This document shows, piece after piece, positions 3,459 through 61,125 of a stretch of 64,000 nt of DNA (within the stretch, counting starts at the first letter, position 1; every line of letters begins with the position of its first letter). A model generated the notes under the pieces. The model was not told the DNA's origin. It ran no database searches and saw only the letters and a program-made list of their open reading frames with translations. Made by a program: the position numbers and the translations under genes. The stretch lies in assembly GCA_041640715.1 (NCBI GenBank), contig JBEPZU010000003.1, positions 12,826 through 76,825 of the forward strand. The letters are read 5' to 3'. The DNA is from Thermoproteota archaeon (GTDB lineage: Archaea; Thermoproteota; Thermoprotei; Gearchaeales; Gearchaeaceae).

Positions 3459-5072
3459 ATGATGGAAACAAGCTTCAAGACAGAGGATAGGTTTTCTAAG
3501 ATATCTATATCATTCGCCTTCCTAGTACTAGCCTTAGGAGGGCTTTTCGGTCTACTTCAGTTATTGACGAGGACTCCTTATTCACCGCTACAATTAGAAC
3601 CAGCTACTTATTACTTAAGCGTAACTGCTCACGGTGTGTTGTTGGCTATCGTATGGACAGCGTTCTTCATAATGGGCTTAGCAGCGTTCGTGATAACAAG
3701 GGAGCTAGGACAGAAAATTAACAGCGTATTACTTAACGTAGCTTTAATTTTAACATTGGCAGGAACTTTGATGGCGGCAATTGCCATATTAAGCGGTACT
3801 TCTAATGTGCTCTATACGTTTTATCCTCCTCTTAAAGCTAATGCTTTCTTCTATTTAGGAGCAGCTATATTATTAATCGGTACATGGATTTTCGCTGTAG
3901 CTATTTTCTTAGCGTTCTTTAACTGGAGGAAGAAGACAAAGGCTGCGATTCCATTAGCTACAATGGGAGTGCTTACGACTCTCATTGTATGGCTAGAGGC
4001 AACACCTGGATTGGCAATCGAAGTCCTTAAAAACCTAATACCCATGGCTTTATTCGATACGCCTGTAGATGCTCTTGAATCCAGGACCTATTTCTGGTAT
4101 TTCGGTCATGCTTTAGTCTACTTCTGGCTATTACCTGCTATAACTCTATGGTATTTCTTCTTGCCTAAGCTATTAAACACAACCATATATAGTGAAAAGG
4201 CGGCAAAAGCTGCTTTCATACTTTTCATACTTTTCTCCACACCTGTAGGATTACATCATCAATTCCAAGATCCTGGAGTTTCACCTCAGTATAAGTTCTT
4301 GCATACTGTATTGACCTACTTAGTGACAGTACCTAGTTTCATGACCGCGTTTAACTTGCTTGCTACAATGGAGAAGAGTTATAGAGAAAAAGGTGGAAAG
4401 TCTTTATTCGGATGGATTAAGCATCTACCATGGAAAGATGGTGTTTTTGTAGGAATAGCTGTTTCCATGATACTTTTTGCCTTCGGAGGAATTAGCGGGA
4501 TAATAAACGCAGCATATACTATTAACGCAGTAGTTCATAATACTGTTTGGGTTGTAGGACACTTCCATCTAACTGTAGGTACAGCTGTTACTCTAACATT
4601 CATGGCCGCTAGTTATGTTATAATACCTGCTTTGTTTGGAAAAGCGATGGTATTTAAACGTTTTATCTTAGCACAGCCTTACCTTTGGTTAATAGGTATG
4701 CTTATTTTCTCTACTTCGTTCCACGTTGGAGGATTATTAGGAATTCCTAGAAGGACAGCAGATATTTTATACGGAGGTTCAGCTCCTTCTAGTTGGATAC
4801 CGCTAGCACAAATAGCAGCGATAGGAGGTATTATATTGTTCATTTCAGGAGTGATATTCATCTTCAACTCAGGTTTCTCCTTGTTAAGAGGGCCAAGAGT
4901 CCAAATGGATGCAGGATCTTTATTTGAAAACAAGAACGAAGATCCTACCATTCTAGATAAACTCTCTATCTGGGTAGTTATCGCAATAGTTATAATCTTA
5001 GTGGCATACATCCTGCCGTTCATGGAGATTTATTCCAGAGGACTTTCGCCAGCCCCTCCAACGTTGCCTTAA
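3459..5072 (+). CDS. Haem-copper oxidase subunit I (ba3/SoxB-like).
   Basis: 537 aa polytopic membrane protein. Conserved His ligands are visible in HHQFQDPG and VVGHFHLTVG. The 1-nt spacing after subunit II is operon-like. Confidence 0.9.
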   Translation: MMETSFKTEDRFSKISISFAFLVLALGGLFGLLQLLTRTPYSPLQLEPATYYLSVTAHGVLLAIVWTAFFIMGLAAFVITRELGQKINSVLLNVALILTLAGTLMAAIAILSGTSNVLYTFYPPLKANAFFYLGAAILLIGTWIFAVAIFLAFFNWRKKTKAAIPLATMGVLTTLIVWLEATPGLAIEVLKNLIPMALFDTPVDALESRTYFWYFGHALVYFWLLPAITLWYFFLPKLLNTTIYSEKAAKAAFILFILFSTPVGLHHQFQDPGVSPQYKFLHTVLTYLVTVPSFMTAFNLLATMEKSYREKGGKSLFGWIKHLPWKDGVFVGIAVSMILFAFGGISGIINAAYTINAVVHNTVWVVGHFHLTVGTAVTLTFMAASYVIIPALFGKAMVFKRFILAQPYLWLIGMLIFSTSFHVGGLLGIPRRTADILYGGSAPSSWIPLAQIAAIGGIILFISGVIFIFNSGFSLLRGPRVQMDAGSLFENKNEDPTILDKLSIWVVIAIVIILVAYILPFMEIYSRGLSPAPPTLP

Positions 5073-9484: not shown

Positions 9485-10274
9485 AGGCTTCCCCTCTTAG
9501 GATATACGCTACAGGTCCTTTCATGAATACTGTGTCATCATCATTAATCCTTATGAACAGACTTCCTCCTGGAAGTTTGACTTCCACTTCATTTGAGCAA
9601 AAACCTAGCTTATAGGCTACGAAAGAAGTGGCGCATGCTCCTGAGCCGCACGCTAAGGTTATCCCAACTCCTCTTTCCCAAACATTCAAGGAGATTTTAC
9701 CCTTGTTTTCTATTAAAGCGAATTCTACGTTAGTTCTATTAGGGAATTCTTCATGTTTTTCTATCAAACCTCCATATTCTCTCAGAAGCTTCTTCGCTTT
9801 TTCTTCATCTTCGAAGAAAACTATGAAATGCGGATTGCCTATGTTAGCGAAAATCCCTGAGAATTTCGCATCTTTAACCTTGATTTCCTTATTCTCTATA
9901 ATCTCGGCCTTACCCATGTTGACTCCTATCAGATCGTTTTCTATGAATACCTTTACCTTCTTAGCATTAGGCCCAACTTCTATTTCTTCTATTTCGCCTA
10001 TCAAAGATTTATCGAATAAATACTTCGCTATCATCCTTATTCCGTTACCGCACATTTCTGCTTCGCTACCATCAGGATTGAATATCCTCATCCTGAACCT
10101 TGTATCCTTGCCTTTGTTTATTACCAAAAGTCCATCCGAGCCTATTCCAAAGTTCTTGTCAGATAATCTAATTGCTAAGTCACTATAAACTGAGTTCAGT
10201 TCAGAATCTAGATCCTCGATTATTATGTAACTATTGCCCAAAGCGTGCATTTTGGTTATTTTTAGCTTCATCAT
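9456..10274 (-). CDS. dapF: Diaminopimelate epimerase.
   Basis: 272 aa. Motifs MHALGNSYIII, CGNGIR and CGSGACA include the two catalytic Cys. Confidence 0.9.
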   Translation of the reverse strand: MMKLKITKMHALGNSYIIIEDLDSELNSVYSDLAIRLSDKNFGIGSDGLLVINKGKDTRFRMRIFNPDGSEAEMCGNGIRMIAKYLFDKSLIGEIEEIEVGPNAKKVKVFIENDLIGVNMGKAEIIENKEIKVKDAKFSGIFANIGNPHFIVFFEDEEKAKKLLREYGGLIEKHEEFPNRTNVEFALIENKGKISLNVWERGVGITLACGSGACATSFVAYKLGFCSNEVEVKLPGGSLFIRINDDDTVFMKGPVAYILRGEAYVVGNKRTS

Positions 10275-24747: not shown

Positions 24748-26400
24748 TTAGTAGAATATGGGCATTCCCGCTAATCTTGCAAAAGAGTAGAAGTAAAGCA
24801 ATAGCAGTATTAATCCGACTATTATACAGAGCGCTAAACTACCTGTTTTACTAGCCTTTGAGGTTTTTATCTCAAAACTCGTCATTAATCCTTCAAAGAC
24901 ATTTTCTTTCTGAGGTTTTGATAAAAAGATTGTGGCTACTATGTTGAAAACAAAGAGTATTCCTCCTATTATTGCGATCAGAGCTCCTACTATTATTAAA
25001 GGAGATACCCAAGTCCATTGAGGTAAGGTCATTTCAGGATAGAAGAAAGTCCTTCGCGGACTCCCATTAAATCCAGCTACAGACATGGTTGTCGCTAATA
25101 TGAGTATACCGAAGAAAAATACGTAAGGCTGTATCTTTGCTATTTTTACACTGTAGATTTTCTTCGAAGTTAAGGCAGGTATAGCATAATAGAACAATAC
25201 CATGAAGGCCATGGTTGTTGCACCTGCCACTAGTGTATGGAAGTGTCCAGGAACCCATAAAGTATTATGGTAATTTACGTTTGGCTGTAAAGTAGTTTGC
25301 GGTTGAGCAATAATTCCTCCAAAGCCTATAAGGATTAGGCTAAGAACAGTTGTGGATATCGCAGGATTGCTCCAAGGAATTTTTCTTATCCATCCAAATA
25401 GGCTGGTATGGCCTGAAGCTCTTATTACGCTCTCTATAGCTCCTGCTAGTGCTAGCCCGTGTAGTAATGTAGGTACTGATAGGAAATGAGAACCTACACT
25501 TCCACTTGCCTGCTTGAGCGCATAGGACCATCCTGGATCTACTAAAATATGATGACCTATACCAGGTACTACAAATATAGGATATAAGACAAATGCTATT
25601 CTTGCATATCTTTCATTAATGAATCTTATCGCTGCAAGACCTGTTCCTAGAACTACTAGAGCGTATAATACAGCTATCGTAGCTGATATATTAAGGTATT
25701 GTGCATCATGACCCAATCCCCAGAAATACCATCTGTACACCATTACATTCATAGGCATCAATCCTACTCTCCATAGAAGTGTGTAGAGCATTGATATTGC
25801 ACCTTGAATCACTACTGTCAAAGCTATGATCGCAGCTATGCCAGCACCCCATGTCACTAAAGGCAAAGAACCTGTATATGCTCCTTTAATTTTTGCATTG
25901 TAAATCGTCAAGAAGAATATTATTACAGCTATTCCTGCACCTAAAGCAAATAGCAAGTATCCTACATAAAAGAGAGGATGTGCAGCCAATGGAGGATATG
26001 CAGTAAATAATACGCTTGCGTTGCCTGAAGCTACTAGTATTTCTATCATTATTTGACCTATGAGCATAAAGGCAAATGCCATCCAAGCCAAACGAATTGA
26101 GTAGAGTTCTGAGTTCAACAAAACGGCCCCTGCGAAATACACTATAGTGATTTCAGCCCATATTATCCAGAATATCAGCATGTTAATTCCGTGTAACGTT
26201 AACCAAATATAGTAATTCTCGTGGGTTATCCCTAGTACATTTATCAAAGAAGAGACCGTAGATCTCCCTCCAGCTACGAATAAAGCAGCTATTCCTCCTA
26301 TGATTATTGATAGTAATGCCATTACTAAGTTAGCTGTTATTAGTAGTCTAGTCTTATCGTATATCTTAAGATCTGCCAAAGGAGATATTCTATAGCTCAT
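24748..26400 (-). CDS. Haem-copper oxidase subunit I, second copy.
   Basis: ~550 aa with VPGHFHTLVAG and other His ligands. The listed ORF extends to 26448, but the probable start is MSYRISPL at 26400, giving an ATGA overlap with the subunit II stop. Confidence 0.9.
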   Translation of the reverse strand: MSYRISPLADLKIYDKTRLLITANLVMALLSIIIGGIAALFVAGGRSTVSSLINVLGITHENYYIWLTLHGINMLIFWIIWAEITIVYFAGAVLLNSELYSIRLAWMAFAFMLIGQIMIEILVASGNASVLFTAYPPLAAHPLFYVGYLLFALGAGIAVIIFFLTIYNAKIKGAYTGSLPLVTWGAGIAAIIALTVVIQGAISMLYTLLWRVGLMPMNVMVYRWYFWGLGHDAQYLNISATIAVLYALVVLGTGLAAIRFINERYARIAFVLYPIFVVPGIGHHILVDPGWSYALKQASGSVGSHFLSVPTLLHGLALAGAIESVIRASGHTSLFGWIRKIPWSNPAISTTVLSLILIGFGGIIAQPQTTLQPNVNYHNTLWVPGHFHTLVAGATTMAFMVLFYYAIPALTSKKIYSVKIAKIQPYVFFFGILILATTMSVAGFNGSPRRTFFYPEMTLPQWTWVSPLIIVGALIAIIGGILFVFNIVATIFLSKPQKENVFEGLMTSFEIKTSKASKTGSLALCIIVGLILLLLYFYSFARLAGMPIFY

Positions 26401-26915
26401 GGTATCACCTCTATGATACCTCTCATTCCACCATGACCGTAGCCGCAATATTCATTGCAAATAATGTAGTAGGTACCTTCCTTGTCAAATCTTATATTAA
26501 ATTTAAAAGCCATTCCTGGCATGACCATGATATTATAAACTGCGTCTTCTCCTACCAATGAGAAACCGTGCATCACATCTGTGCTAGAAACCCAAATTTC
26601 ATATTCAACTCCTTTCTTCAGGATTATCTTAGAGGGTTCCCAATAGTATTGTTTGCCCGCTAGGTATATTGGTGTTCCTGGAGGAACAGGCTTGTCTGCA
26701 AATTCCTCCATAAAAGCTTGAACAAGCTTCTCATATTCCTCATGTTCTATAGCAATTGCTGTAGCTGGTACTGCATGTTTAGCATCTGCCAAAGGCCAAA
26801 GCAGAGTAGTTAGAGCTAGTATTATTCCGATGATGAATGAAAGTGCTATCCATAGCCTTTCCTCTTTGGTGAAAGGTTTATACCACTCCTCTATTTTCTT
26901 AGGTATTACCACCAT
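26397..26915 (-). CDS. Haem-copper oxidase subunit II (CuA), second copy.
   Basis: CuA motif H...CNEYCGYGHGGM. The true start is probably MVVIPKKIEEW at 26915. The 37-codon upstream extension in the listed ORF looks non-coding in this frame. Confidence 0.85.
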   Translation of the reverse strand: MVVIPKKIEEWYKPFTKEERLWIALSFIIGIILALTTLLWPLADAKHAVPATAIAIEHEEYEKLVQAFMEEFADKPVPPGTPIYLAGKQYYWEPSKIILKKGVEYEIWVSSTDVMHGFSLVGEDAVYNIMVMPGMAFKFNIRFDKEGTYYIICNEYCGYGHGGMRGIIEVIP

Positions 26916-52840: not shown

Positions 52841-52891
52841 AAACTAACATTCTATAAAAAAATTTAAGCTTTTTAGAAATAATAACCTTAA

Positions 52892-55800
52892 ATGGGTAGG
52901 CTTATACTAGGCATTCTAATTCTAATCATATTCATCCTTTCCTTCAACTCAAGTTCAATTTCTAAGAATAGCAATGGAGAAGCACTTACTGATCATTTAT
53001 ACTTGAGAAATCTAGGTCCTGAAATCCTAAAGCAGTTAGAGGAGAACAATTTCAGTTATGAAGACTTAGCCACTGGTTTGAAGATAAAAGGAACCGTAAA
53101 AGATTATGAAAGAACTTTTGGTATCCCTATTCAATTTGAAGATGGTAAGATTTCCTATCCACCCAAAAGCGAACCAATCTCCTTGAACTTTATGAGCGAT
53201 GAAAATCCCTATGAACCTTTGGTAGATTATGCAGACCAAGGTCTCTCTCCAGATGTCTTGAAGAGAGCCTATGGTATAGATAGGCTTCATTCAGAAGGAT
53301 ATAAAGGCGAAGGGATTAGAATAGCTATCGTAGTAGCCTATGGGAGTCCTACTATAACTGATGATCTAAGGCAGTTTTCTATTCAATTTGGTCTTCCTGA
53401 AGCAAACTTAGAAATAATATATCCAAACGGAAATCCTAATGTAGAAAATGAGAAATGGGCATTGACCACGAACCTAGTTTTAGAATGGATTCACGCAATA
53501 GCCCCTCTTGCGACTAAATACTTAATCGTTGCTAAAGATTCAGGTTCCAGCTTAGAAGATGCTATGGTTTATTCATTCACTAAAGATTATGACATAATAG
53601 TCTTTCCCTTCGGTAAAAACGAGAGCAGCATGGATAGAGGAGTCATGAATTACCTGAGTTACAATATAAGGAATATCGCCAACAAAGGAACTGTAGTTAT
53701 AGCTCCTGTAGACGATTCAGGCAATAACTTGATCTTGTATCCTTCTTCTGATCCCTATGTCTTGAGCGTAGGAGGTACTATGCTATACTTAGATAACAAT
53801 GGGTACTATGCCTATGAGAAGTCTTGGGACAAGAGTTTTGGATCTAAAAGTGAAGTCTTCAAAAGACCTCCATGGCAAGAAGTAATAGGGCTAGGAGAAA
53901 ATGACGGTAGAGCTTTCCCTGATGTATCTATGGCAGCAAGCAACGGATTTAAGATTTTCTTCAGAGGTTCTTTGATCAATCTAAAGGGCAATGCAGCGGC
54001 TGCTTCTCATTTCGCATCTCTCTTAGCTCTCTCATTCCAGATAGCGAATAAAAGATTTGAGAATTTAGCTAGGATGCTTTATGAGATTTATTCCTCAAGT
54101 TTTTATTCGGGTTTATTCAACGATATAAAGCTAGGAGAGAGGACTGCAGAAGGATGGGATTACGCTACAGGAATAGGTTCTACTAAGGCTTATAATCTTG
54201 CTCATTTCATAGCTAAGGAATTTCTAACACTTTCTATAAACTATAGCGGTGCAAGCTATCCTCCTTATTTTTTAATCGATAACCAAGCTTATCCTACGCC
54301 CATAAAGCTCAATCTGATGAGGAACTTTACTCATAGATTAGAAGCTCAAGAGTATTTGTATGAAAGCGGATTGAAGAGATATGCCTTTAAAGCTTGGAAT
54401 GGAAGTTTAGAAAGTAACCAAAGAGTTCTGTTCATTCCGATCGTTAAAAATTATGAATTAACAATAGAGTATAAGGTTCAGTATAACGTAATCGTCAATT
54501 CTAACTATAGTATCGTCACTGGTGCAGGATGGTATGACCAAGGCTCTATCATCACTATAAGCTTGGATAACACGATTAGTTATATCTCTAATTATACAAG
54601 AGCCATATTCTTAGGTTGGGAAGGGATAGGCTTGAATAGTTACAGCGGAACTTCCAAAAACTTCTCTTTAAGAGTAGATAGTTGGGTTATTGAAAATGCA
54701 ATCTGGAAAATTCAACATTTCGTTCAGGTAATATCAGATTTCTTCGGGAATAGTAGCGGTTGGTACGATGAAAAATCAAGATTTAATTTCACCATAGAAG
54801 ACCCTTATTACGTATCAGATGAGGAAAGATACATTGTGAAAAAATGGCTTGTTCTGCTCAATAATACAAATGCCTTTTACTTGGAGGGCAATGGGATAAG
54901 CCTTGAAGTCAATGCTCCTATGACAATAAAGCCTATTTTCATTAGGCAATTCAAGTTATCTTTCAGTTCTAATATTCCATTGGAGAAATTAAAAGGTTCG
55001 CTTTGGTATGATGAGAATTCTATAGCTCATTTCTATACTGAGTTATTTCTCTATGAAACTTCCAATAGAACAAGATACGTATTTTTATCCCTTTCCTTAG
55101 ACGGCGAAACTTTGAATACGAACGAGTTATACATCAAAATGGACAGGCCTCATCATATAGAAACAAATTATAAGGTTCAGCATTATATCTCAGTTCAAAG
55201 TCCTTTCTACACAATCTTTGGTGCAGGATGGTATGACCAAGGCTCTATCGTCACGATAAGCTTAAGCTATACAGAATATTACATAAACAACTCCACTAGG
55301 TATTATTTTAAGAATTTCAACGTAAGCGAATATTTGGACTTCAAAAGAAGCGATATAGCAATGTTGAAGATCAAGGTAGAGAAGCCTTTGCACATAGTTG
55401 CCAATTGGGTATTGCAATATTACGTATATTTGCATAACAGGTACGGCAATGCAATAGGTTCAGGTTGGTATGATGCTGGTTCAATAGCTGCTATTTCCGT
55501 AGAGCCAAGCTATATGCCTCTATCAGAGAAATCCAGATTGGCTTTCACCCATTGGTTAATAGATGACCAAGAATATTATGGTGCATTTGTGATCGTTGAT
55601 AAACCTCTTAGAGCGGAGGCTGTTTATTCTCTTCAATATCTAGTCAATATCGATCTCAGAAACATGAAAGACGAAAGAATCGCAGGTAATATTATCTTAG
55701 AATTTCTAGATCCGAGATTGAGAGTCTACTATTTTAATAATACTTCTGTTTGGCTAATAGGAAACGTATACTGGAAACTAAATAAAGTCATTTTGGAAGG

Positions 55801-56188
55801 AAGAAGCTTTAAAGTAGAAAACGTCAGCTTTTTCGTGAATTCTCCTTTGGATTTGAAGGTTAAATTAAATATAATTGATTTAGAGATCTTTGTGAGAAGC
55901 TTATTCGGTTTGCCCATTAAAGACTTCGAGATCGAGGTCAATGCTTCGAATTACGTCTTTAGGGTTTCTACAGATGCTGAAGGTAGGGCTTTAGTGAAGT
56001 ATGTGGATCCCGGTCAAACTAAGCTTCGTTATAAGACTATTTTAGGTTATGTAGAAGAAGGGATTGGAGAAAGCGATAATAAAGTCATTACAATTTTTTC
56101 ATTTTACCCTGATTTCTTCGTATTCTTGCTTATTGCTTTGCTAGGTTTCATGCTTTTCTTAGTTAGAAAATTGCAGAAATGGATTTAA
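52892..56188 (+). CDS. Secreted, C-terminally membrane-anchored sedolisin (S53)-like protein with four internal repeats; possibly catalytically inactive.
   Basis: 1098 aa. An N-terminal signal-like helix is followed by a prokumamolisin-like region and an S53 signature (GEGIRIAIVVAYGSPTITDDLRQFSIQFGLP ... DDSGNN ... SVGGT). Four ~75-100 aa repeats with G-x-GWYD follow. The C-terminal TM is LLIALLGFMLFLV, and there are about 18 N-x-S/T sequons. Confidence 0.65.
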   Translation: MGRLILGILILIIFILSFNSSSISKNSNGEALTDHLYLRNLGPEILKQLEENNFSYEDLATGLKIKGTVKDYERTFGIPIQFEDGKISYPPKSEPISLNFMSDENPYEPLVDYADQGLSPDVLKRAYGIDRLHSEGYKGEGIRIAIVVAYGSPTITDDLRQFSIQFGLPEANLEIIYPNGNPNVENEKWALTTNLVLEWIHAIAPLATKYLIVAKDSGSSLEDAMVYSFTKDYDIIVFPFGKNESSMDRGVMNYLSYNIRNIANKGTVVIAPVDDSGNNLILYPSSDPYVLSVGGTMLYLDNNGYYAYEKSWDKSFGSKSEVFKRPPWQEVIGLGENDGRAFPDVSMAASNGFKIFFRGSLINLKGNAAAASHFASLLALSFQIANKRFENLARMLYEIYSSSFYSGLFNDIKLGERTAEGWDYATGIGSTKAYNLAHFIAKEFLTLSINYSGASYPPYFLIDNQAYPTPIKLNLMRNFTHRLEAQEYLYESGLKRYAFKAWNGSLESNQRVLFIPIVKNYELTIEYKVQYNVIVNSNYSIVTGAGWYDQGSIITISLDNTISYISNYTRAIFLGWEGIGLNSYSGTSKNFSLRVDSWVIENAIWKIQHFVQVISDFFGNSSGWYDEKSRFNFTIEDPYYVSDEERYIVKKWLVLLNNTNAFYLEGNGISLEVNAPMTIKPIFIRQFKLSFSSNIPLEKLKGSLWYDENSIAHFYTELFLYETSNRTRYVFLSLSLDGETLNTNELYIKMDRPHHIETNYKVQHYISVQSPFYTIFGAGWYDQGSIVTISLSYTEYYINNSTRYYFKNFNVSEYLDFKRSDIAMLKIKVEKPLHIVANWVLQYYVYLHNRYGNAIGSGWYDAGSIAAISVEPSYMPLSEKSRLAFTHWLIDDQEYYGAFVIVDKPLRAEAVYSLQYLVNIDLRNMKDERIAGNIILEFLDPRLRVYYFNNTSVWLIGNVYWKLNKVILEGRSFKVENVSFFVNSPLDLKVKLNIIDLEIFVRSLFGLPIKDFEIEVNASNYVFRVSTDAEGRALVKYVDPGQTKLRYKTILGYVEEGIGESDNKVITIFSFYPDFFVFLLIALLGFMLFLVRKLQKWI
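54470..55560 (+). repeat. Intragenic tandem-repeat region (4 G-x-GWYD modules), including an exact 30-nt duplicate.
   Basis: ggtgcaggatggtatgaccaaggctctatc occurs identically at 54521..54550 and 55220..55249. The protein repeats are VQYNVIVNS..TGAGWYDQGSI, QHFVQV..NSSGWYDEKS, VQHYISV..FGAGWYDQGSI and LQYYVYL..IGSGWYDAGSI. Confidence 0.7.
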
Positions 56189-57471
56189 GCATAGATTATA
56201 TTAAACTCGAAACTGAGAACAAAAGTAAATTCATCCTCGAACCTTCTGCTGAGATTTGCATACCTTGTAGAGGAACACGTTATCTATGCGGTAGAAGTTA
56301 TTGTCCAATAATAGTTAGAACTATGAAAATGCTCAGGAGAATAGAACTGAGCAAAAGAATAATTGAAGGATCTTCGCCTCCAGCGGTTTTTGTAGGTAGA
56401 TTTGGTTATCCTAAGGTTAGTATAGGTTACTTGGTACCTCCTATAATAGGAGAAACAAGCCATTATGATCTTCCTGAATCGTGGAGTAATCTAAAGCTTG
56501 AAGATATATTGAACTTTCGTTTTTCCATGGTAAGAGGTTATAGAATAACTAATATCGAGGAGGCTAGGAATGAACCTAGTTGGCTTTTGAATCTGCAAGA
56601 AATAGCCGCCTCTAAACATCCAGTAGATATGGAGCTTAGACTAAAACGAATACCTTCGAAAAGCGTATTTCTCGATGAGATATCCCATCCCATGGGACCT
56701 TCTGCTATTCTTCAAGATCTTAGAATTTTCTCTGAAATCAAAATGGATGAGAAAATAGAGAAGGTTTATTATTCGAAAGACCTTAGCGCTAGAGAAGCGA
56801 TAATCAAACTTTACATGGAAGGAAAAGAGGTCTCCAAAATAGCCAAGGCATTAAGCGTTGGAATGTTAGGTTTTAAGAAAAGTAGAAAGCTTGTTCCTAC
56901 TAGATGGAGCATAACCGCTGTAGATGATACGATTTCAAAAGAATTGGTAGAGAGGATAAAATATTTCGAAACGATAGATAAGATCAGAGTTTATTTCAAA
57001 GAAAAGCATCTTAATAGGTTTGTCATAATAATGCTTCCTAATAAATGGTCTTACGAATGGATTGAATGTTGGTATCCGCATACTACTTGGAATTTGTACG
57101 GAAAGGAAGCAGAAGCTGAATCTGATTATGAAAGTTTCAAGGGAAAGAAAGAATATTCAAGTCTAGGCGGATGTTATTATGCAGTTAGATTAGCAGTCGC
57201 TGAAAGATTGAATCTAGAGAGAAGACAAGCTACGGTATTAGCGATAAGGGAAATATTGCCGGGATTCATCACATCCATCGGCGTTTGGTTCGTTAGAGAA
57301 AGCATTAGAGAAGTCTTAAAGGAGAAGTTTTTGGTTTTTGAAGACATTAAAGACGCTTTGGAGTATTCCTTTTCAAAACTTTTAATAAATAAGAATAAAA
57401 TAATAGAGAAGAGTAAAATTTTAAAAAATATATATTTTCAAACAAGAATTAAGGATTTCTTGATTAAATAA
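56179..57471 (+). CDS. nreA: NreA-like archaeal DNA repair protein (DUF650/DUF651).
   Basis: 430 aa. The N-terminus EICIPCRGTRYLCGRSYCPII and SPPAVFVGRFGYPKVSIG match the Nre N-domain pattern. It overlaps the end of the S53-like gene by 10 nt. Confidence 0.6.
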   Translation: MDLSIDYIKLETENKSKFILEPSAEICIPCRGTRYLCGRSYCPIIVRTMKMLRRIELSKRIIEGSSPPAVFVGRFGYPKVSIGYLVPPIIGETSHYDLPESWSNLKLEDILNFRFSMVRGYRITNIEEARNEPSWLLNLQEIAASKHPVDMELRLKRIPSKSVFLDEISHPMGPSAILQDLRIFSEIKMDEKIEKVYYSKDLSAREAIIKLYMEGKEVSKIAKALSVGMLGFKKSRKLVPTRWSITAVDDTISKELVERIKYFETIDKIRVYFKEKHLNRFVIIMLPNKWSYEWIECWYPHTTWNLYGKEAEAESDYESFKGKKEYSSLGGCYYAVRLAVAERLNLERRQATVLAIREILPGFITSIGVWFVRESIREVLKEKFLVFEDIKDALEYSFSKLLINKNKIIEKSKILKNIYFQTRIKDFLIK

Positions 57472-58144
57472 ATTTAATACTTAAATTCCATTTTCTTGTG
57501 TTTAACGATATATTCAAAATTGTTACTGTTATTGATTCTATTAAATCAGAAAGCCCAAGATCTCCTACATATAAAGGATTTAAGTGTTGATCTATATGTT
57601 TAGTGATCTCTAAGAATTTCTCTATTGAATTTTGATTATTAGCGCAATAAAGTAGGTCATAGTTTAGTATTGCATAGGGATCTGCCAATTTCTTAGCTGG
57701 TATGGTATGGAAAGAAGAAACAACCTTATTCGTATTTAAAATCTTACTAATTTCTTCAGCTGCAGATTTTGCTCCTGGTCTTATTAAAGAAGGGTTATAT
57801 ACGAATTTCCTATCCTGTTTAGAAACAGGGACTATAGGAGATATTATGACGGCTTCTTTATTAATTTCGCCTTTTATTTTCTCTAAGAATTCATAAACTG
57901 CATTTGGGGGTATGGATAATATTATTGCATCAGCTTCTTTTACAGCTTCCTCGTTTTTCATACCTTCTATTCTTCCTTTGACCTCATTTTGGTATGCAAG
58001 TATAGCTTTGCTAGCATATTCTTTAGCTTGGTTTATTGCTTTCTCCTTATCTCTAGAGCCTATAATCACGTCGTGGTATCTCGATAGCCTTATTGCTAAT
58101 CCTATACCCAGATCTCCTGTACCTCCTAATATTGCTATTTTCAT
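57464..58144 (-). CDS. NADP oxidoreductase, F420-dependent family (NpdG/Fno-like Rossmann protein).
   Basis: 226 aa. MKIAILGGTGDLGIGLAIRLSRYHDVIIGSRDKEKA is a near-textbook NpdG N-terminus. Confidence 0.6.
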   Translation of the reverse strand: MKIAILGGTGDLGIGLAIRLSRYHDVIIGSRDKEKAINQAKEYASKAILAYQNEVKGRIEGMKNEEAVKEADAIILSIPPNAVYEFLEKIKGEINKEAVIISPIVPVSKQDRKFVYNPSLIRPGAKSAAEEISKILNTNKVVSSFHTIPAKKLADPYAILNYDLLYCANNQNSIEKFLEITKHIDQHLNPLYVGDLGLSDLIESITVTILNISLNTRKWNLSIKFI

Positions 58145-58217
58145 GGTTTATATAACTGACAATTTCTTTTTTATTTTTTCGAAATGTTTATATAATTGTT
58201 TTTGGTTAGAAATTTTA

Positions 58218-59780
58218 ATGGTAAGAGTTGTTCTTACAGCAGATCGAACTCTTACCGGAGAATTCCATCACATTCCTCTGTTGGACTTCTTTAGTTGTGC
58301 ACCCGTAGAAAGGACTCCTCAATTCTTGTACGATTTCCTAACGGGTCAGGTTCCTACTTATAATGGTATATTGGTAAGGGCTCCATATCCTTTGAGAAAG
58401 TTAGAAGCCGGTTTGCTCAGAGGGTATAAACCAAGTGAGATAGCAGTCGTGCATGCAGATCATGTTCATAAGTACATTGATGAAGATACAAGAGTAGTAG
58501 CCGTGAATACGATGGACCCGCTTGGACTAGGACCAGTTACTATGATGTTTACATATGGAGGCTATTACACTGCCTATACTAAGTATTACTTCATAAAACT
58601 GGTTAAGACTGTAGCAGAAATTAGGAGGAAAAGGAATCTGAAGTTCAAGATCGTGGTAGGAGGAAGCGGGGCTTGGCAATTAGATATCAAGAGGCATTAT
58701 TTAGATCAACTCGAGATAGACCATCTAATAATGGGAGAAGTAGATCATATTTTACCGGATTTGTTTTATCAAATTGAAGGGAATGGTTTAGACAGGGTGA
58801 TAAAAGTCAGAGGTCATCCTAAAATAGAAGAAATACCGACTATAGTGAGGTCTGCAATGCATGGGTTTACCGAGGCTATGCGGGGATGTGGAAGAAATTG
58901 TCACTTTTGCGAACCTAACTTGAGATTTGGAAGATACATGCCTGTAGAGAAAATAAAGAAAGAAGTTTTGGTAAACTTACGTGGCGGAATTAGGAATGTA
59001 TGGTTACATAGCGAAGACATATTCCTTTATGAAGTGGAAGACAAGTCGAATTTCTATCCCAATAGAGATGCTTTAATAAGATTATTCAGTAGCATTATGA
59101 ATATAAAAGGAATAGTTCACATGAATCCTACTCACGGAACTGTATCAGCAGCCGCGGCTGATCCTTTGTTAATAAGGGATCTTTCTAAAATATTAAGGGC
59201 AAATCAAAGGAATTGGATAGGCATTCAATGCGGCTTAGAATCAGGTTCATCTAAGATATTAACCAATTACATGCCATTGAAAGCAAAACCTTTCGATGCT
59301 GAAGAGTGGTCTGAGGTGATATTTGAAGGAAACGCGGTTTTGAATGAGAATTATTGGTTCCCTGCCTATACCTTGATCATAGGCTTACCTGGAGAAAGCG
59401 AGGACGATGCATGGGAAACAGCTAGGCTAATAGATAGACTCGAAAAAGAACTACCTAAGCGAGTAGGGAATAAAGCTCACTTCACAGTGACACCTCTTAG
59501 TTTTGTTCCTATAGGCTTGCTAAGGGATAAAGACTTCTATAACGTAGATGAACAGATAAATCAGGCTTCCTTCACTGTAATATATAGAGCGTGGAGACAT
59601 ACAATACTCGAGCTGGTATCAGCTTCAAGATATGTATTCAGAGTCAATCCTTTATTCAAAGCCTTTATGATAGGTTTATCGATGTTTGGAGCTAATGTAA
59701 TTCTTAGAGTTATAGAGAAGTGGGGTGAAAAATTAGGTTTTGATGTAGAAAAAGCAAAAAGAATTAGTTGGAATAACTAA
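58218..59780 (+). CDS. Radical SAM protein with an N-terminal B12-binding-like domain.
   Basis: The CxxxCxxC motif is CGRNCHFC. The start is reassigned to ATG 58218 (MVRVVLTADR). The listed 57912 start would overlap the convergent NpdG-like gene by 230 nt with a hydrophobic nonsense peptide. Confidence 0.65.
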   Translation: MVRVVLTADRTLTGEFHHIPLLDFFSCAPVERTPQFLYDFLTGQVPTYNGILVRAPYPLRKLEAGLLRGYKPSEIAVVHADHVHKYIDEDTRVVAVNTMDPLGLGPVTMMFTYGGYYTAYTKYYFIKLVKTVAEIRRKRNLKFKIVVGGSGAWQLDIKRHYLDQLEIDHLIMGEVDHILPDLFYQIEGNGLDRVIKVRGHPKIEEIPTIVRSAMHGFTEAMRGCGRNCHFCEPNLRFGRYMPVEKIKKEVLVNLRGGIRNVWLHSEDIFLYEVEDKSNFYPNRDALIRLFSSIMNIKGIVHMNPTHGTVSAAAADPLLIRDLSKILRANQRNWIGIQCGLESGSSKILTNYMPLKAKPFDAEEWSEVIFEGNAVLNENYWFPAYTLIIGLPGESEDDAWETARLIDRLEKELPKRVGNKAHFTVTPLSFVPIGLLRDKDFYNVDEQINQASFTVIYRAWRHTILELVSASRYVFRVNPLFKAFMIGLSMFGANVILRVIEKWGEKLGFDVEKAKRISWNN

Positions 59781-60093: not shown

Positions 60094-61125
60094 ATGTCCC
60101 AATTGCTAACATTTGGAGACTTAGCTTCTTTAGTAGTGAAGCCAAACTTATGTGTTAGATGCGGTGCCTGTGTTGCAGTATGTCCTCCGGATGTGCTCAA
60201 AGTAGATGAATATAGCTCTGAAGGAGCCCAATTGGTAGGAGTTTGCACTCTATGTGGATTATGTCCATTAGTATGTCCTGTATTACATCCTTATGAAGCT
60301 CCTCTTGAAAGACCTTTGGGGAATTATCTCGAATATGGAATATACAAAGCTGCAGATGAAAGCTTGAAAGCAACAGACGGTGGTGTAACGACTGCAATTT
60401 TAGAACAGGCATTTGAAATGGGAATAATAGATTCAGCCATATTAGCTACGAGGGATGAGGAATGGTATGCCAAGGCCGTGATCGTCACAAACAAGGATGA
60501 TGTCAGAAAATATGCCCAGACCATATATTGGCATGTGCCCATGGTTACTCCTTTAAGGACTGCTATAGAGAAGATGAAGTTGAAGAAAATAGCTATTGTA
60601 GGTACAGGATGTCAAACAGAAGCTGCTAGATTGATGGATAAGATACCCAAATTCAAAGGAAGGGTTGCTTTGCTTTTAGGTTTATTCTGCTCCTCTACCT
60701 GGATGAGAGAAGATTTCTTGGATATTGTAAGAGAAAAATTAGCTATAACTCCAAAGGAGATAGAGAGGATGGACGTTAAAGGAGAGCTAATTTTCAAACT
60801 AAAAGACGGAAGCATCAAAAAATTACCAATCGAGGACTTCGACGAAGCTATATTTGGTTCTTGTTTTGTTTGTCATGATTTCACCGCTGAGGTAAGTGAC
60901 ATTTCACTTGGTGCTAATGGGGCCCCTCCTGGATGGAACTTTCTATTGGTAAGAACTGAATTGGGTAAGCAGATTTTAGAAGCTGCTTTGAAGTCTGGTA
61001 AGATTATCAAAAGCAATGTCAAGCCTAAAATTAAATTTGTGACCAATAGGGCTATAGATCAAAAACTAAGAGAAATGCCTCAGCATATAGTTAAACAGCT
61101 ACCTATAATTCAAAGCAAAAAATGA
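60094..61125 (+). CDS. Coenzyme F420 hydrogenase/dehydrogenase beta-subunit (FrhB/FpoF)-family protein.
   Basis: 343 aa. Two 4Fe-4S motifs, CVRCGACVAVCP and CTLCGLCPLVCP, are followed by FrhB N- and C-domain patterns: GGVTTAILEQA, CSSTW and CFVCHDFTAE. Confidence 0.7.
   Translation: MSQLLTFGDLASLVVKPNLCVRCGACVAVCPPDVLKVDEYSSEGAQLVGVCTLCGLCPLVCPVLHPYEAPLERPLGNYLEYGIYKAADESLKATDGGVTTAILEQAFEMGIIDSAILATRDEEWYAKAVIVTNKDDVRKYAQTIYWHVPMVTPLRTAIEKMKLKKIAIVGTGCQTEAARLMDKIPKFKGRVALLLGLFCSSTWMREDFLDIVREKLAITPKEIERMDVKGELIFKLKDGSIKKLPIEDFDEAIFGSCFVCHDFTAEVSDISLGANGAPPGWNFLLVRTELGKQILEAALKSGKIIKSNVKPKIKFVTNRAIDQKLREMPQHIVKQLPIIQSKK

What the first reader, a model, noticed from the sequence alone, without database searches (positions are those of the whole stretch)
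52892..56188. Giant anchored sedolisin-like surface glycoprotein with apparent loss of the catalytic serine
The protein has a signal-like N-terminus, a C-terminal TM anchor and about 18 N-glycosylation sequons, which indicates a cell-surface glycoprotein. The S53 signature blocks are present (AYGSPT...DL..F...FGLP, DDSGN, SVGGT). Where sedolisins have GGTSAAAP with the Ser nucleophile, this protein reads KGNAAAAS. No E-x-x-x-D catalytic pair is evident before the AIAP block, which reads NLVLEWIHAIAP. This suggests a pseudo-protease recruited as a structural or adhesive surface protein. My alignment is by eye and may be off.
Basis: partly seen in the sequence, partly recalled or inferred. Interest (0 to 1): 0.55.

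Follow-up and report, generated by a model that had tools for sequence, protein, structure and literature searches.

The report
Dead sedolisin on an archaeal surface stalk
This gene of an uncultured hot-spring archaeon encodes a membrane-anchored, probably heavily glycosylated surface protein whose outer domain is a sedolisin-type protease that has lost its catalytic residues yet is still kept by natural selection, so it is a pseudo-protease that databases wrongly call a peptidase.

Summary
ORF 52892..56188 (+) encodes 1098 aa: a signal peptide, a short prodomain-like remnant, a sedolisin (S53) head, eight β-domains (five are clear ~78-aa "GWYD" repeats), a TM helix and a basic tail. It has 20 N-x-S/T sequons where 9.6±2.9 are expected.

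The head is a genuine sedolisin fold (TM 0.83, rmsd 2.3 Å to kumamolisin-As). Kumamolisin Glu78, Asp82, Ser126, Ser128, Thr277 and Pro282 are near-invariant in 101 other heads. All six are replaced here and in all three orthologue groups (Thermoproteota MAGs, YNPFFA single-cell genome). Only the oxyanion Asp and the Ca²⁺-site residues remain.

The orthologues keep the Ser, so the Glu/Asp loss is the older and more secure part.

The gene is syntenic and intact. dN/dS for the head is 0.12-0.16, so it is maintained, not decaying.

Active proteins with the same layout exist (P0188; Picrophilus membrane-associated S53 protease), as do other independently degenerate heads. It is therefore a non-catalytic variant of a known kind of anchored archaeal protease. 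A binding or structural role is inferred, not shown. Interest is modest.

The parts
52892..56188 (+). Complete CDS, 1098 aa plus stop: membrane-anchored pseudo-sedolisin.
   Evidence: Exact protein P0001 is in the NCBI-derived collection. Orthologues are P0002 (54%), P0003/P0121 (38%) and P0004 (37%).
52850..52885 (.). A/T-rich 51-nt divergent intergenic region with two TATA-like elements (CTATAAAAAA, TTTTTAGAAATAATAA) between this gene and the divergent TrpB-like gene. Putative promoters; inference only.
   Evidence: Sequence read. Not tested.
52892..52963 (+). Signal-peptide-like N-terminus (hydrophobic core at residues 4-22).
   Evidence: Hydropathy. AF2 helix 2-17 at low pLDDT.
52964..53221 (+). 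Residues 25-110: short remnant resembling the C-terminal half of the pro-kumamolisin activation domain (…GLKIKGTVKDYERTFGIPIQ…) plus linker. Present in the window protein and P0002, absent in P0003/P0004.
   Evidence: The top Foldseek hit is intact pro-kumamolisin 1t1e over 472 columns. BLASTP aligns it to the prodomain end of P0188. hhalign is weak (prob 4.8%, E 0.008). Pfam gives no hit.
53222..54211 (+). Residues 111-440: sedolisin (S53) fold head domain, catalytically degenerate.
   Evidence: AF2 pLDDT >90. TMt 0.82-0.83 and rmsd 2.3-2.6 Å to kumamolisin-As. phmmer E=6.8e-13.
53465..53479 (+). Former catalytic helix T192-T-N-L-V196. Thr192 replaces Glu78 and Val196 replaces Asp82 (kumamolisin numbering).
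   Evidence: Glu is present in 100/101 and Asp in 98/101 other heads. Orthologues have L/L/L and V/A/A.
53606..53611 (+). Pro239-Phe240 replace Ser128 (the S' serine described as completely conserved in S53) and Trp129.
   Evidence: Literature role from PMC2635056 and PMC11593635.
53714..53716 (+). Asp275 = retained oxyanion-hole Asp164 (DDSGN).
53990..53995 (+). Asn367-Ala368 replace Thr277-Ser278 (the nucleophile). Codon GCA is one T->G change from the TCN Ser codon of the orthologues.
54122..54160 (+). Asp411-Ile412 … Gly421-Trp-Asp423: retained Ca2+-site motif (NDI…GWD..TG.G) of sedolisins.
   Evidence: Alignments. Invariant columns. The Ca2+ site as a family feature comes from PMC2635056.
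54212..54466 (+). Stalk domain D0 (residues 441-525): β-domain with no significant sequence repeat signal.
   Evidence: AF2 model..
54467..55636 (+). Five tandem ~78-aa 'QY.V.V.S..G…G.GWYD.GS…TR..F..W' repeats R1-R5 (residues 526-915), InlB-B-repeat-like.
   Evidence: Inter-repeat phmmer E from 4e-4 to 2.5e-15. Homologues carry PF18998/TIGR02543. The window repeats themselves give no Pfam hit.
55637..56089 (+). Two membrane-proximal β-domains D6 and D7 (residues 916-1066). D7 is CarboxypepD_reg-like.
   Evidence: AF2. Sub-threshold PF13620 E=0.054. The equivalent domain gives PF13620 matches in P0188 (28.7 bits, below the 32.3-bit cut-off) and P0225 (34.2 bits, above it). Collinear alignment.
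56108..56185 (+). C-terminal TM helix (~1073-1092) and short basic cytoplasmic tail RKLQKWI.

Best explanation
The gene encodes a cell-surface pseudo-peptidase. The signal peptide directs export (inferred). The C-terminal TM helix and basic tail hold the protein in the membrane with the bulk outside (inferred from topology). A chain of eight β-domains carries 17 of the 20 N-glycosylation sequons. Five of these domains are InlB-B-repeat-like and the last is CarboxypepD_reg-like. If extended, my estimate is that this chain forms a stalk of very roughly 25-30 nm. At its tip sits a correctly folded sedolisin domain that keeps its fold, its Ca2+-site motif, the oxyanion Asp and the glycine-rich groove segments. 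It has lost the Glu-Asp proton relay, the S' serine, Thr277 and, in this genome, the Ser nucleophile (shown). It therefore cannot hydrolyse peptides by the sedolisin mechanism, and it cannot auto-remove its short prodomain remnant (inferred). Because the head is the best-conserved part and has dN/dS of about 0.12-0.16 (shown), it has a selected non-catalytic job. The most likely job is that the old substrate groove or surface acts as a binding or structural module displayed at the outer edge of the envelope. It descends from ordinary anchored archaeal sedolisins of identical layout (shown by collinearity with P0188).
For: Homology and fold. Catalytic columns: searches cover 101 other heads. 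Glu78 is present in 100/101, Asp82 in 98/101 and Ser278 in 98/101, and the four orthologues read T/L/L/L, V/V/A/A and A/S/S/S. Ser126, Ser128, Thr277 and Pro282 are also replaced in all four. The flanking motifs (W…EW.HAIAP) anchor the alignment without gaps. The direct BLASTP pair with active P0188 shows WARETMLDVVW against WALTTNLVLEW and IGGTSLSAP against LKGNAAAAS. Roles of these residues: PMC2635056 and PMC11593635. Selection: the ORF is intact in 5 orthologue genes; synteny TrpB-like | gene | Nre | F420-type oxidoreductase is conserved in L001, L002, L012 and L013. The head is the most conserved region, at 64/43/40% identity. NG86 dN/dS for the head is 0.157 (97.5%-identical pair) and 0.121 (72% pair). 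Topology and sequons. Stalk. Same layout with active heads: P0188, P0198, P0210, P0212, P0225 and Picrophilus AAT42772.1. The same stalk also carries an S8 head in P0140.
Against: No biochemical data exist. Inactivity is inferred from residue identity and from published knowledge of the triad. Three of four orthologue groups still have Ser278, and three of four (a different set) keep Asp164, so some residual or different hydrolytic chemistry in them is not excluded. I could not inspect model coordinates, so I could not check whether another acidic residue reaches the former active site or whether the prodomain linker lies in the groove. Glycosylation, surface exposure and any ligand are unobserved. 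Ser->Ala rests on one nucleotide in one assembly. The gene neighbourhood (TrpB-like, Nre, oxidoreductase) gives no functional hint.
Confidence: 0.75

Rival explanations
1. It is the S-layer protein, or the S-layer pillar, of this lineage. The dead sedolisin head forms or joins the outer lattice and the eight β-domains form the pillar that sets the width of the space under the lattice. This would parallel the single-polypeptide PySLP-type S-layer proteins of Thermoproteota.
For: The overall topology matches that described for PySLP-like proteins in bioRxiv 10.64898/2026.08.21.746120: an N-terminal distal region, a pillar of tandem β-domains, a C-terminal TM helix and a short basic tail. The orthologue tails end in Lys, as reported there. 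The protein is sequon-rich, lacks Cys and evolves fast compared with its neighbours (37-38% against 60-77% identity). It is single-copy and syntenic in the lineage.
Against: There are no expression, abundance or lattice data. Homology to PySLP or SlaA/SlaB was not tested. Active proteases with the same stalk and anchor exist (P0188, P0140), so the topology is generic for anchored exoproteins. Foldseek of the stalk gives only generic pilin, adhesin and stalk matches. I could not search the rest of the genome for a conventional S-layer gene.
Confidence: 0.1
2. It is still a working peptidase that uses non-canonical residues, for example Ser278 with Asp164 in the orthologues, or other acids such as Glu198/Asp274 in the window protein.
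For: Asp164 is retained in 3 of 4 orthologue groups and Ser278 in 3 of 4. The head is under purifying selection. Databases name the orthologues 'S53 family peptidase' or 'Predicted protease'.
Against: Glu78 and Asp82 are replaced by Thr/Leu and Val/Ala in every member. Ser128 becomes Pro and Thr277 becomes Asn/Pro in every member. The window protein has no Ser at the nucleophile position. Candidate substitutes are not conserved across the clade: position 84 is E/Q/Q/Q, position 163 is D/D/G/G and position 282 is S/S/V/I. The database names are automatic, homology-based labels.
Confidence: 0.05
3. It is a decoy or partner for active surface sedolisins. It would bind their substrates, inhibitors or the enzymes themselves, as many pseudo-proteases regulate active paralogues.
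For: Active proteins of identical architecture exist in archaea. The fold, groove glycines and oxyanion Asp are retained. Pseudoenzymes regulating active relatives is a general pattern from established knowledge, not tested here.
Against: No active paralogue was found in the window, and none could be searched for in the same genomes. The nearest active relative examined (P0188) is from a different organism, with GC 44% against 36% and low identity of neighbouring genes. There is no operon partner.
Confidence: 0.1
4. It is a decaying gene with no function, a relic of an anchored protease.
For: Loss of catalytic residues. Fast divergence relative to neighbours. No Pfam hit at all.
Against: There is an uninterrupted reading frame of 1019-1130 codons in five orthologue genes spanning 37-100% identity. 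Position is conserved. dN/dS is 0.12-0.23 in the head and repeats. New invariant residues have been fixed in the former catalytic helix: T193, N194, L195, L197, W199.
Confidence: 0.03

Closest known systems
Kumamolisin / kumamolisin-As and Pseudomonas sedolisin (MEROPS S53; PDB 1sio, 1siu, 1gt9, 1t1e, 1nlu)
   Same: Same fold (TMt 0.80-0.83, rmsd 2.3-2.9 Å, about 24% identity). The oxyanion Asp, the Ca2+-site motif and the SVGGT and AIAP blocks are retained. The best single match is the intact, mutant-inactivated pro-form 1t1e.
   Different: There is no Ser-Glu-Asp triad, no S' serine and no Thr277. The prodomain is only an ~85-aa remnant. A 650-aa stalk and a TM anchor are appended. It is archaeal. 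No Pfam or NCBIfam model recognises it.
Archaeal membrane-anchored sedolisins of the same layout: metagenomic P0188, P0225 and P0198, and the Picrophilus 'membrane associated serine protease' (AAT42772.1 / Q6L2N0, listed as MEROPS S53)
   Same: P0188 is collinear from the prodomain end through the head, GWYD-type repeats and CarboxypepD_reg-like domain to the TM anchor, at 25% identity over about 950 residues. These proteins are of similar size (1076-1428 aa) and are archaeal.
   Different: They all keep Glu78, Asp82, Asp164 and Ser278. The window family does not. P0188 is from an unrelated organism.
P0140: an S8 subtilase with the same repeat stalk and C-terminal anchor
   Same: Same InlB-B-like GWYD repeats (E=1e-47 to the window stalk) and a C-terminal TM. 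This shows the stalk is a reusable display module for exoenzymes.
   Different: The head is a classical Asp-His-Ser subtilase (HGT…GTSASTPH), not a sedolisin, and is presumably active.
Other degenerate S53 heads (P0240, P0324, P0300, P0058), i.e. non-peptidase homologues of S53
   Same: Sedolisin homologues lacking one or more triad residues. This shows that loss of catalysis recurs in the family.
   Different: They are independent events with different substitutions. They are not orthologous to the window family, and none was examined for selection or synteny.
PySLP-type single-polypeptide S-layer proteins of Thermoproteota (bioRxiv 10.64898/2026.08.21.746120)
   Same: Topology only: a distal N-terminal region, a pillar of tandem β-domains, a C-terminal TM helix and a short basic tail.
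   Different: In PySLP the distal region is made of Ig-like domains, not a protease fold. Sequence relationship, lattice formation and abundance were not tested for the window protein.

Membership tests
Sedolisin / MEROPS S53 serine-carboxyl peptidases | Subtilisin-like alpha/beta fold of the sedolisin type | tested here: met
   AF2 core pLDDT >90. Foldseek to kumamolisin-As, sedolisin and TPP1 gives E from 2e-25 to 1e-18 and TMt up to 0.83. phmmer E=6.8e-13.
Sedolisin / MEROPS S53 serine-carboxyl peptidases | Ser-Glu-Asp catalytic triad (kumamolisin Ser278, Glu78, Asp82) | tested here: not met
   Ala368, Thr192 and Val196 occupy these columns. Orthologues read S/S/S, L/L/L and V/A/A. 101 other heads are near-invariant.
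Sedolisin / MEROPS S53 serine-carboxyl peptidases | Oxyanion-hole Asp (Asp164) | tested here: met
   Asp275 in DDSGN. Retained in P0001-P0003, Asn in P0004.
Sedolisin / MEROPS S53 serine-carboxyl peptidases | Conserved S' serine (Ser128) and Thr277, which support the nucleophile and the oxyanion Asp | tested here: not met
   Pro239, and Asn367 (Pro in P0003/P0004). Ser and Thr are found in 99/101 and 100/101 other heads. Roles.
Sedolisin / MEROPS S53 serine-carboxyl peptidases | Octahedral Ca2+ site (Asp-Ile … Gly-x-Gly-x-Asp) | tested here: met
   At sequence level only. FNDI (409-412) and GWD (421-423) are invariant in the clade and aligned to kumamolisin NNDI…GPGWD. Metal binding itself is not testable here.
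Sedolisin / MEROPS S53 serine-carboxyl peptidases | N-terminal pro-kumamolisin activation domain (PF09286) removed autocatalytically | tested here: inconclusive
   No Pfam hit. hhalign prob 4.8%, E 0.008, to the right part of the prodomain. Foldseek's best hit is the pro-form over 472 columns. BLASTP aligns it to the prodomain end of P0188. It is absent in P0003/P0004. Autoprocessing is not testable.
Sedolisin / MEROPS S53 serine-carboxyl peptidases | Recognition by curated family models (Pfam Peptidase_S8/S53 clan models, NCBIfam) | tested here: not met
   Pfam gives 0 families at E<=1. NCBIfam gives only a mycosin model at E=0.045, 12.9 bits against a cut-off of 278.75.
Sedolisin / MEROPS S53 serine-carboxyl peptidases | Peptidase activity at acidic pH | not testable with these tools
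   Needs recombinant protein.
Pseudoenzyme (non-peptidase homologue of a peptidase family) | Clear homology to an enzyme family, loss of essential catalytic residues, and maintenance by purifying selection | tested here: met
   Homology. Residue loss. dN/dS for the head 0.12-0.16, with intact syntenic orthologues.
InlB B-repeat-like repeats (Pfam PF18998 Flg_new_2 / TIGR02543) | Match to the family model | tested here: inconclusive
   The window protein and its single repeats give no PF18998 hit. Its significant stalk homologues carry precomputed PF18998 or are named TIGR02543 (P0140-P0146, P0156, P0164, P0167; E from 1e-47 to 1e-14). P0198 and P0212 give sub-threshold PF18998 hits.
InlB B-repeat-like repeats (Pfam PF18998 Flg_new_2 / TIGR02543) | Tandem ~75-80-aa beta-rich units | tested here: met
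   Five units of 75-81 aa with mutual E from 4e-4 to 2.5e-15. All-beta beads with pLDDT about 90 and pTM 0.45.
Single-polypeptide S-layer proteins of Thermoproteota (PySLP-like) | Signal peptide, pillar of tandem beta-domains, C-terminal TM helix, short basic tail | tested here: met
   Criteria taken. This topology is not specific to S-layer proteins.
Single-polypeptide S-layer proteins of Thermoproteota (PySLP-like) | Sequence or profile homology to PySLP; lattice formation; very high abundance | not tested
Lattice formation and abundance need cryo-ET and proteomics.

The most novel reading that the evidence does not exclude
In this uncultured YNPFFA-related Thermoproteota lineage the main envelope protein (S-layer or its pillar) is built from a domesticated, catalytically dead sedolisin displayed on an InlB-B-repeat pillar. 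That would be an S-layer whose distal, lattice-side domain is a pseudo-protease rather than an Ig-like array.
Probability: 0.1. Interest if true: 0.7.

Novelty: new variant of a known kind. Interest (0 to 1): 0.35.

Why it matters
There are three modest points.

1. Annotation. Orthologues are deposited as 'S53 family peptidase' or 'Predicted protease'. Counting them as secreted peptidases in hot-spring metabolic reconstructions would be wrong.

2. Evolution of pseudoenzymes. This is a clean natural example with a datable order of events. The Glu/Asp relay, the S' serine and Thr277 were lost in the common ancestor. The prodomain was then lost in one subclade and the nucleophile in another, while the head stayed under purifying selection. 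It also has fully collinear active relatives for comparison.

3. Archaeal envelope biology. It adds a candidate non-enzymatic surface component for a lineage with no cultured member. The layout resembles both anchored exoproteases and single-polypeptide S-layer proteins.

None of this overturns current understanding. Pseudo-proteases and anchored archaeal sedolisins are both known.

Tried and rejected
- **Pfam and NCBIfam:** Pfam on the whole protein and on single repeats gave nothing. NCBIfam gave only a meaningless mycosin match. Family assignment therefore had to come from PDB phmmer, alignments and structure.
- **RNA genes:** Rfam and tRNA scans of the window gave nothing, so there was no taxonomic marker. 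The organism was inferred from the orthologue record titles.
- **Prodomain homology by hhalign:** weak (prob 4.8%). I kept it as inconclusive.
- **Foldseek of the stalk against PDB:** only generic multi-domain pilin, adhesin, usher and stalk hits at TM of about 0.1-0.3. No specific fold name can be claimed from it.
- **P0188 as an active paralogue in the same lineage:** rejected. Its contig has 44% GC and unrelated neighbours.
- **Contig lookup for the window protein:** not on record.
- **Literature searches** for archaeal pseudo-sedolisins and for protease-like S-layer parts found no description.
- **Operon with the downstream Nre gene** (10-nt overlap): considered as a functional link and rejected. 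Nre is a cytoplasmic DNA-repair-associated family, and the overlap is not present in the orthologous loci.
- **Alternative catalytic residues** (Glu198, Asp274, Ser372): rejected because they are not conserved in the clade.
- **dN/dS for window vs L010:** unusable because synonymous sites are saturated.
- **Model coordinates:** I could not access them, so no active-site geometry, groove occupancy or surface-conservation mapping was possible.

Full report
**1. What is there**

It is the longest ORF in the window. The window is 36% GC chromosomal DNA with ordinary housekeeping genes. These include two heme-copper oxidase subunit I genes, PEPCK, a GH1 glycosidase, adenine deaminase and aspartokinase, and there are no RNA genes.

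The identical protein is in the NCBI-derived collection without a name, on a 98-kb contig. Its relatives come from a 'Thermoproteota archaeon' MAG and the Yellowstone single-cell genome 'Crenarchaeota archaeon SCGC AAA471-B05 YNPFFA'. The source is therefore an uncultured aerobic hot-spring crenarchaeon.

**2.

- **Topology.** The N-terminus is hydrophobic (residues 4-22). There is a single C-terminal TM segment (1075-1092) followed by RKLQKWI, and AlphaFold2 models a helix at 1073-1097.
- **Sequons.** There are 20 N-x-S/T sequons. 2000 shuffles give 9.6 ± 2.9, and none reached 20. Seventeen of the 20 lie in residues 441-1098, and the orthologues have 18-25. The protein has no cysteine.
- **S53 motifs.** The quoted S53 blocks are present.
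- **Curated models.** Pfam finds nothing even at E ≤ 1, and NCBIfam gives only a meaningless match.
- **Homology.** phmmer against PDB sequences gives kumamolisin-As at E = 6.8e-13 over query residues 134-435.
- **Structure.** An AlphaFold2 model of residues 1-470 (49-sequence alignment) has pLDDT above 90 across 110-440. It superposes on kumamolisin-As, kumamolisin and Pseudomonas sedolisin at TM 0.80-0.83 and rmsd 2.3-2.9 Å. Human TPP1 follows, then subtilases.

The head is unambiguously a sedolisin fold.

**3. The catalytic residues**

I rebuilt kumamolisin-As residues 18-350 from the alignment. Its chain numbering reproduces the published E32, E78, D82, W129, D164 and S278. I aligned it with the S53 domains of 59 hits from the word-indexed search and 46 further head-bearing hits from the exhaustive profile search.

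| Kumamolisin residue | 101 non-orthologous heads | Window, P0002, P0003, P0004 |
|---|---|---|
| Glu78 | Glu in 100 | Thr, Leu, Leu, Leu |
| Asp82 | Asp in 98 | Val, Val, Ala, Ala |
| Ser278 | Ser in 98 | Ala, Ser, Ser, Ser |
| Asp164 | Asp in 98 | Asp, Asp, Asp, Asn |

Four more near-invariant positions are also replaced in all four orthologues:

- Ser126 → Val/Leu.
- Ser128 → Pro. PMC2635056 describes this S′ serine as completely conserved in S53.
- Thr277 → Asn/Pro. This residue hydrogen-bonds Asp164 according to PMC11593635.
- Pro282 → Ser/Val/Ile.

Glu32 → Val/Ile and Trp129 → Phe also occur in some active heads.

The alignment around Glu78 and Asp82 has no gaps and is anchored on both sides. 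Active heads read W..E..LD.EW.HAIAPGA, and this clade reads W..(T/L)TNL(V/A)L.W.H.I.PL. A direct BLASTP pair with the active relative P0188 shows WARETMLDVVW against WALTTNLVLEW, and IGGTSLSAP against LKGNAAAAS.

The Ca²⁺-site motif (FNDI…GWD..TG.G), the oxyanion Asp and the structural glycines are retained. No alternative acid or serine is conserved across the clade: position 84 is E/Q/Q/Q, position 163 is D/D/G/G and position 282 is S/S/V/I.

I ran that test and it did not refute the claim.

**4. A correction of emphasis**

The title feature, loss of the serine, is the weakest part. Ala368 is GCA at 53993-53995. The three orthologue genes have TCG, TCT and TCA. It is therefore a single T→G change, seen in one assembly whose protein cluster has one member.

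The secure, ancestral inactivation is the loss of the Glu-Asp relay together with Ser128 and Thr277. This is shared by lineages as divergent as 37% identity.

**5. Is it a live gene?**

Yes, for four reasons.

- **Intact orthologues.** Five orthologue genes of 1019-1130 codons are uninterrupted.
- **Conserved gene order.** The order TrpB-like (−) | this gene (+) | Nre (+) | F420-type oxidoreductase (−) is conserved in L001, L002, L012 and L013.
- **Fast but constrained evolution.** The neighbours are 60-77% identical where this protein is 37-38% identical, so it evolves fast, as exposed proteins do. Within the protein, however, the dead head is the best-conserved part: 64/43/40% identity to P0002/P0003/P0004, against 44/22/27% for the membrane-proximal domains.
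- **Purifying selection.** Nei-Gojobori dN/dS values are below.

| Pair (aa identity) | Head | Repeats | Distal domains |
|---|---|---|---|
| L013 vs L001 (97.5%) | 0.157 | 0.234 | 0.080 |
| L012 vs L013 (72%) | 0.121 | 0.158 | 0.207 |

New invariant residues (T193, N194, L195, L197, W199) have been fixed in the former catalytic helix. The head is being maintained for something other than catalysis.

**6. The rest of the protein**

*Prodomain remnant.* Residues 25-110 exist only in the window protein and P0002.

- AF2 models them as a small α/β unit at pLDDT about 75-83.
- The best Foldseek hit of the whole model is intact pro-kumamolisin (1t1e) over 472 columns, against about 361 columns for mature enzymes.
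- BLASTP aligns IKGTVKDYERTFGIPIQ with VKGSSSKFERLLGVRIE at the prodomain end of P0188, where Pfam gives a sub-threshold Pro-kuma_activ hit to profile positions 91-142.
- Profile-profile comparison is weak (probability 4.8%, E 0.008), although it hits the right region.

I treat this as a probable remnant of the C-terminal half of the activation domain. With no triad it cannot be removed autocatalytically (inference).

*Stalk.* Residues 441-1066 are modelled with mean pLDDT 89.9 as all-β beads on a string (pTM 0.45), followed by the TM helix.

- Five units of 75-81 aa (R1-R5, residues 526-915) are clearly homologous to one another, with E from 4e-4 to 2.5e-15. Their signature is QY.V.V.S..G…G.GWYD.GS…TR..F..W.
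- Domains D0, D6 and D7 are β-domains without a repeat signal.
- D7 gives a sub-threshold CarboxypepD_reg match (E 0.054), at the place where P0188 and P0225 also match this model (P0225 above the cut-off, P0188 just below it).
- Foldseek of the stalk returns only generic pilin, adhesin and stalk architectures.

*What else carries this stalk.* A search with the stalk alone finds archaeal (Bathyarchaeia, Thermoproteota) and some bacterial proteins. Their repeats carry PF18998 (divergent InlB B-repeat) or TIGR02543. Their heads are very varied: an S8 subtilase, matrixin and InhA-type metalloproteases, protein kinases, zinc ribbons and NosD. P0140, for example, is a classical S8 subtilase on seven such repeats with a C-terminal anchor. 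The stalk is a general display module.

**7. How wide is the family, and what is its nearest active kin?**

An exhaustive HMMER search of the four-sequence profile against 1.84 billion representatives returns only two full-length representatives, P0001 and P0003. The dead clade is narrow, amounting to two clusters at 50% identity.

Among the other hits, 43 of 46 head-bearing proteins have the full Glu/Asp/Asp/Ser set. Several of these share the S53-head-plus-repeat layout (P0188, P0198, P0210, P0212, P0225). P0188 is collinear with the window protein over its entire length, including the CarboxypepD_reg-like domain and the anchor. It comes from an unrelated organism, with 44% GC.

P0236 is the Picrophilus 'membrane associated serine protease', listed as MEROPS S53. 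Anchored archaeal sedolisins are thus an annotated kind.

Three other heads (P0240, P0324, P0300), plus P0058, are independently degenerate. Catalytic loss recurs in S53.

**8. How it most likely works**

*Shown:* a sedolisin fold without the catalytic machinery; a conserved Ca²⁺-site motif and oxyanion Asp; purifying selection on the head; an N-out, C-anchored topology by sequence; and descent from an architecture used by active anchored proteases.

*Inferred:*

- Export by the Sec pathway and signal-peptide cleavage.
- N-glycosylation of the stalk.
- A stalk very roughly 25-30 nm long if the eight β-domains are extended (my estimate).
- A head displayed at the outer edge of the envelope that binds rather than cuts, or that serves as a structural cap.
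- A prodomain remnant that stays attached in this subclade.

I put about 0.9 on 'catalytically dead by the sedolisin mechanism, and functional'. I put about 0.5 on a specific binding or structural role for the head.

**9. Rivals**

- **S-layer protein or pillar.** The topology matches that reported for PySLP-type proteins of Thermoproteota. That topology is shared with anchored exoenzymes, and no abundance or lattice data exist. Probability about 0.1.
- **Decoy or partner of active surface proteases.** Probability about 0.1. No active paralogue is known in the same genomes.
- **Non-canonical active peptidase.** Probability about 0.05. The replaced residues are hydrophobic, and no substitutes are conserved.
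- **Decaying relic.** Probability about 0.03. This is contradicted by dN/dS and the intact orthologues.

**10. Novelty and score**

I found no description of an archaeal pseudo-sedolisin in the paper library. Pseudo-proteases in general, degenerate S53 homologues and anchored archaeal sedolisins are all known. This is therefore a new non-catalytic variant of a known kind, not a new kind.

Its value lies in correcting 'S53 family peptidase' annotations. It is also a tidy natural series of stepwise inactivation under continued selection. Interest 0.35.

Noticed in passing
window 56179-56188: The stop of the pseudo-sedolisin gene overlaps the ATG of the downstream Nre (Nre_N/Nre_C) gene by 10 nt. 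In the orthologous loci the two genes are adjacent but separated by about 35-50 nt. The adjacency is conserved but no functional link is evident.
   Followed up: partly
L001/L002 vs window and L010: Orthologous, syntenic loci differ strongly in base composition. L001 and L002 are 27% GC, L010 is 33.5% and the window is 36%. The lineage carrying this gene therefore spans a wide compositional range.
   Followed up: no
proteins P0240, P0324, P0300, P0058 (not in window): Four other S53 homologues have independently lost one or more triad residues: P0240 reads E/I/N/M, P0324 Q/A/D/N, P0300 has Asp82->Gly and P0058 has Ser278->Gln. P0324 is named 'subtilase family serine protease'.
   Followed up: partly
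window 3459-5072 (+) and 24748-26448 (-): There are two separate heme-copper oxidase subunit I (COX1) genes within 22 kb, indicating an aerobic respiratory lifestyle with two terminal oxidases.
   Followed up: no
window 57912-59780 (+) vs 57464-58144 (-): The mechanical 622-aa ORF of the radical-SAM gene overlaps the opposite-strand F420-type oxidoreductase gene by about 230 nt. The real start is probably an internal ATG near 58224, since the Radical_SAM match lies well downstream.
   Followed up: partly
L011 ~9700-10000 (upstream of P0188): The active look-alike P0188 is called from inside its prodomain. The upstream frame encodes a signal peptide and the first half of a pro-kumamolisin-like domain, but it is interrupted by an in-frame stop. 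This could be a sequencing error, a pseudogenised prodomain or a miscalled start.
   Followed up: partly
C-termini of P0002, P0003, P0004 vs window 56165-56185: The orthologues' short basic cytoplasmic tails all end in Lys (…RRLIK, …KKVLK, …ILKIK). This feature was reported as conserved in PySLP-type S-layer proteins. The window protein ends …RKLQKWI.
   Followed up: no
window 1-64000: No tRNA, rRNA or any Rfam family reaches threshold in 64 kb.
   Followed up: yes
window 60094-61125 (+) and 57464-58144 (-): An FrhB/FdhB-type F420-dependent beta-subunit homologue and an F420-type NADP oxidoreductase homologue lie in a crenarchaeal, apparently aerobic context. This hints at F420 or related deazaflavin use.
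   Followed up: no
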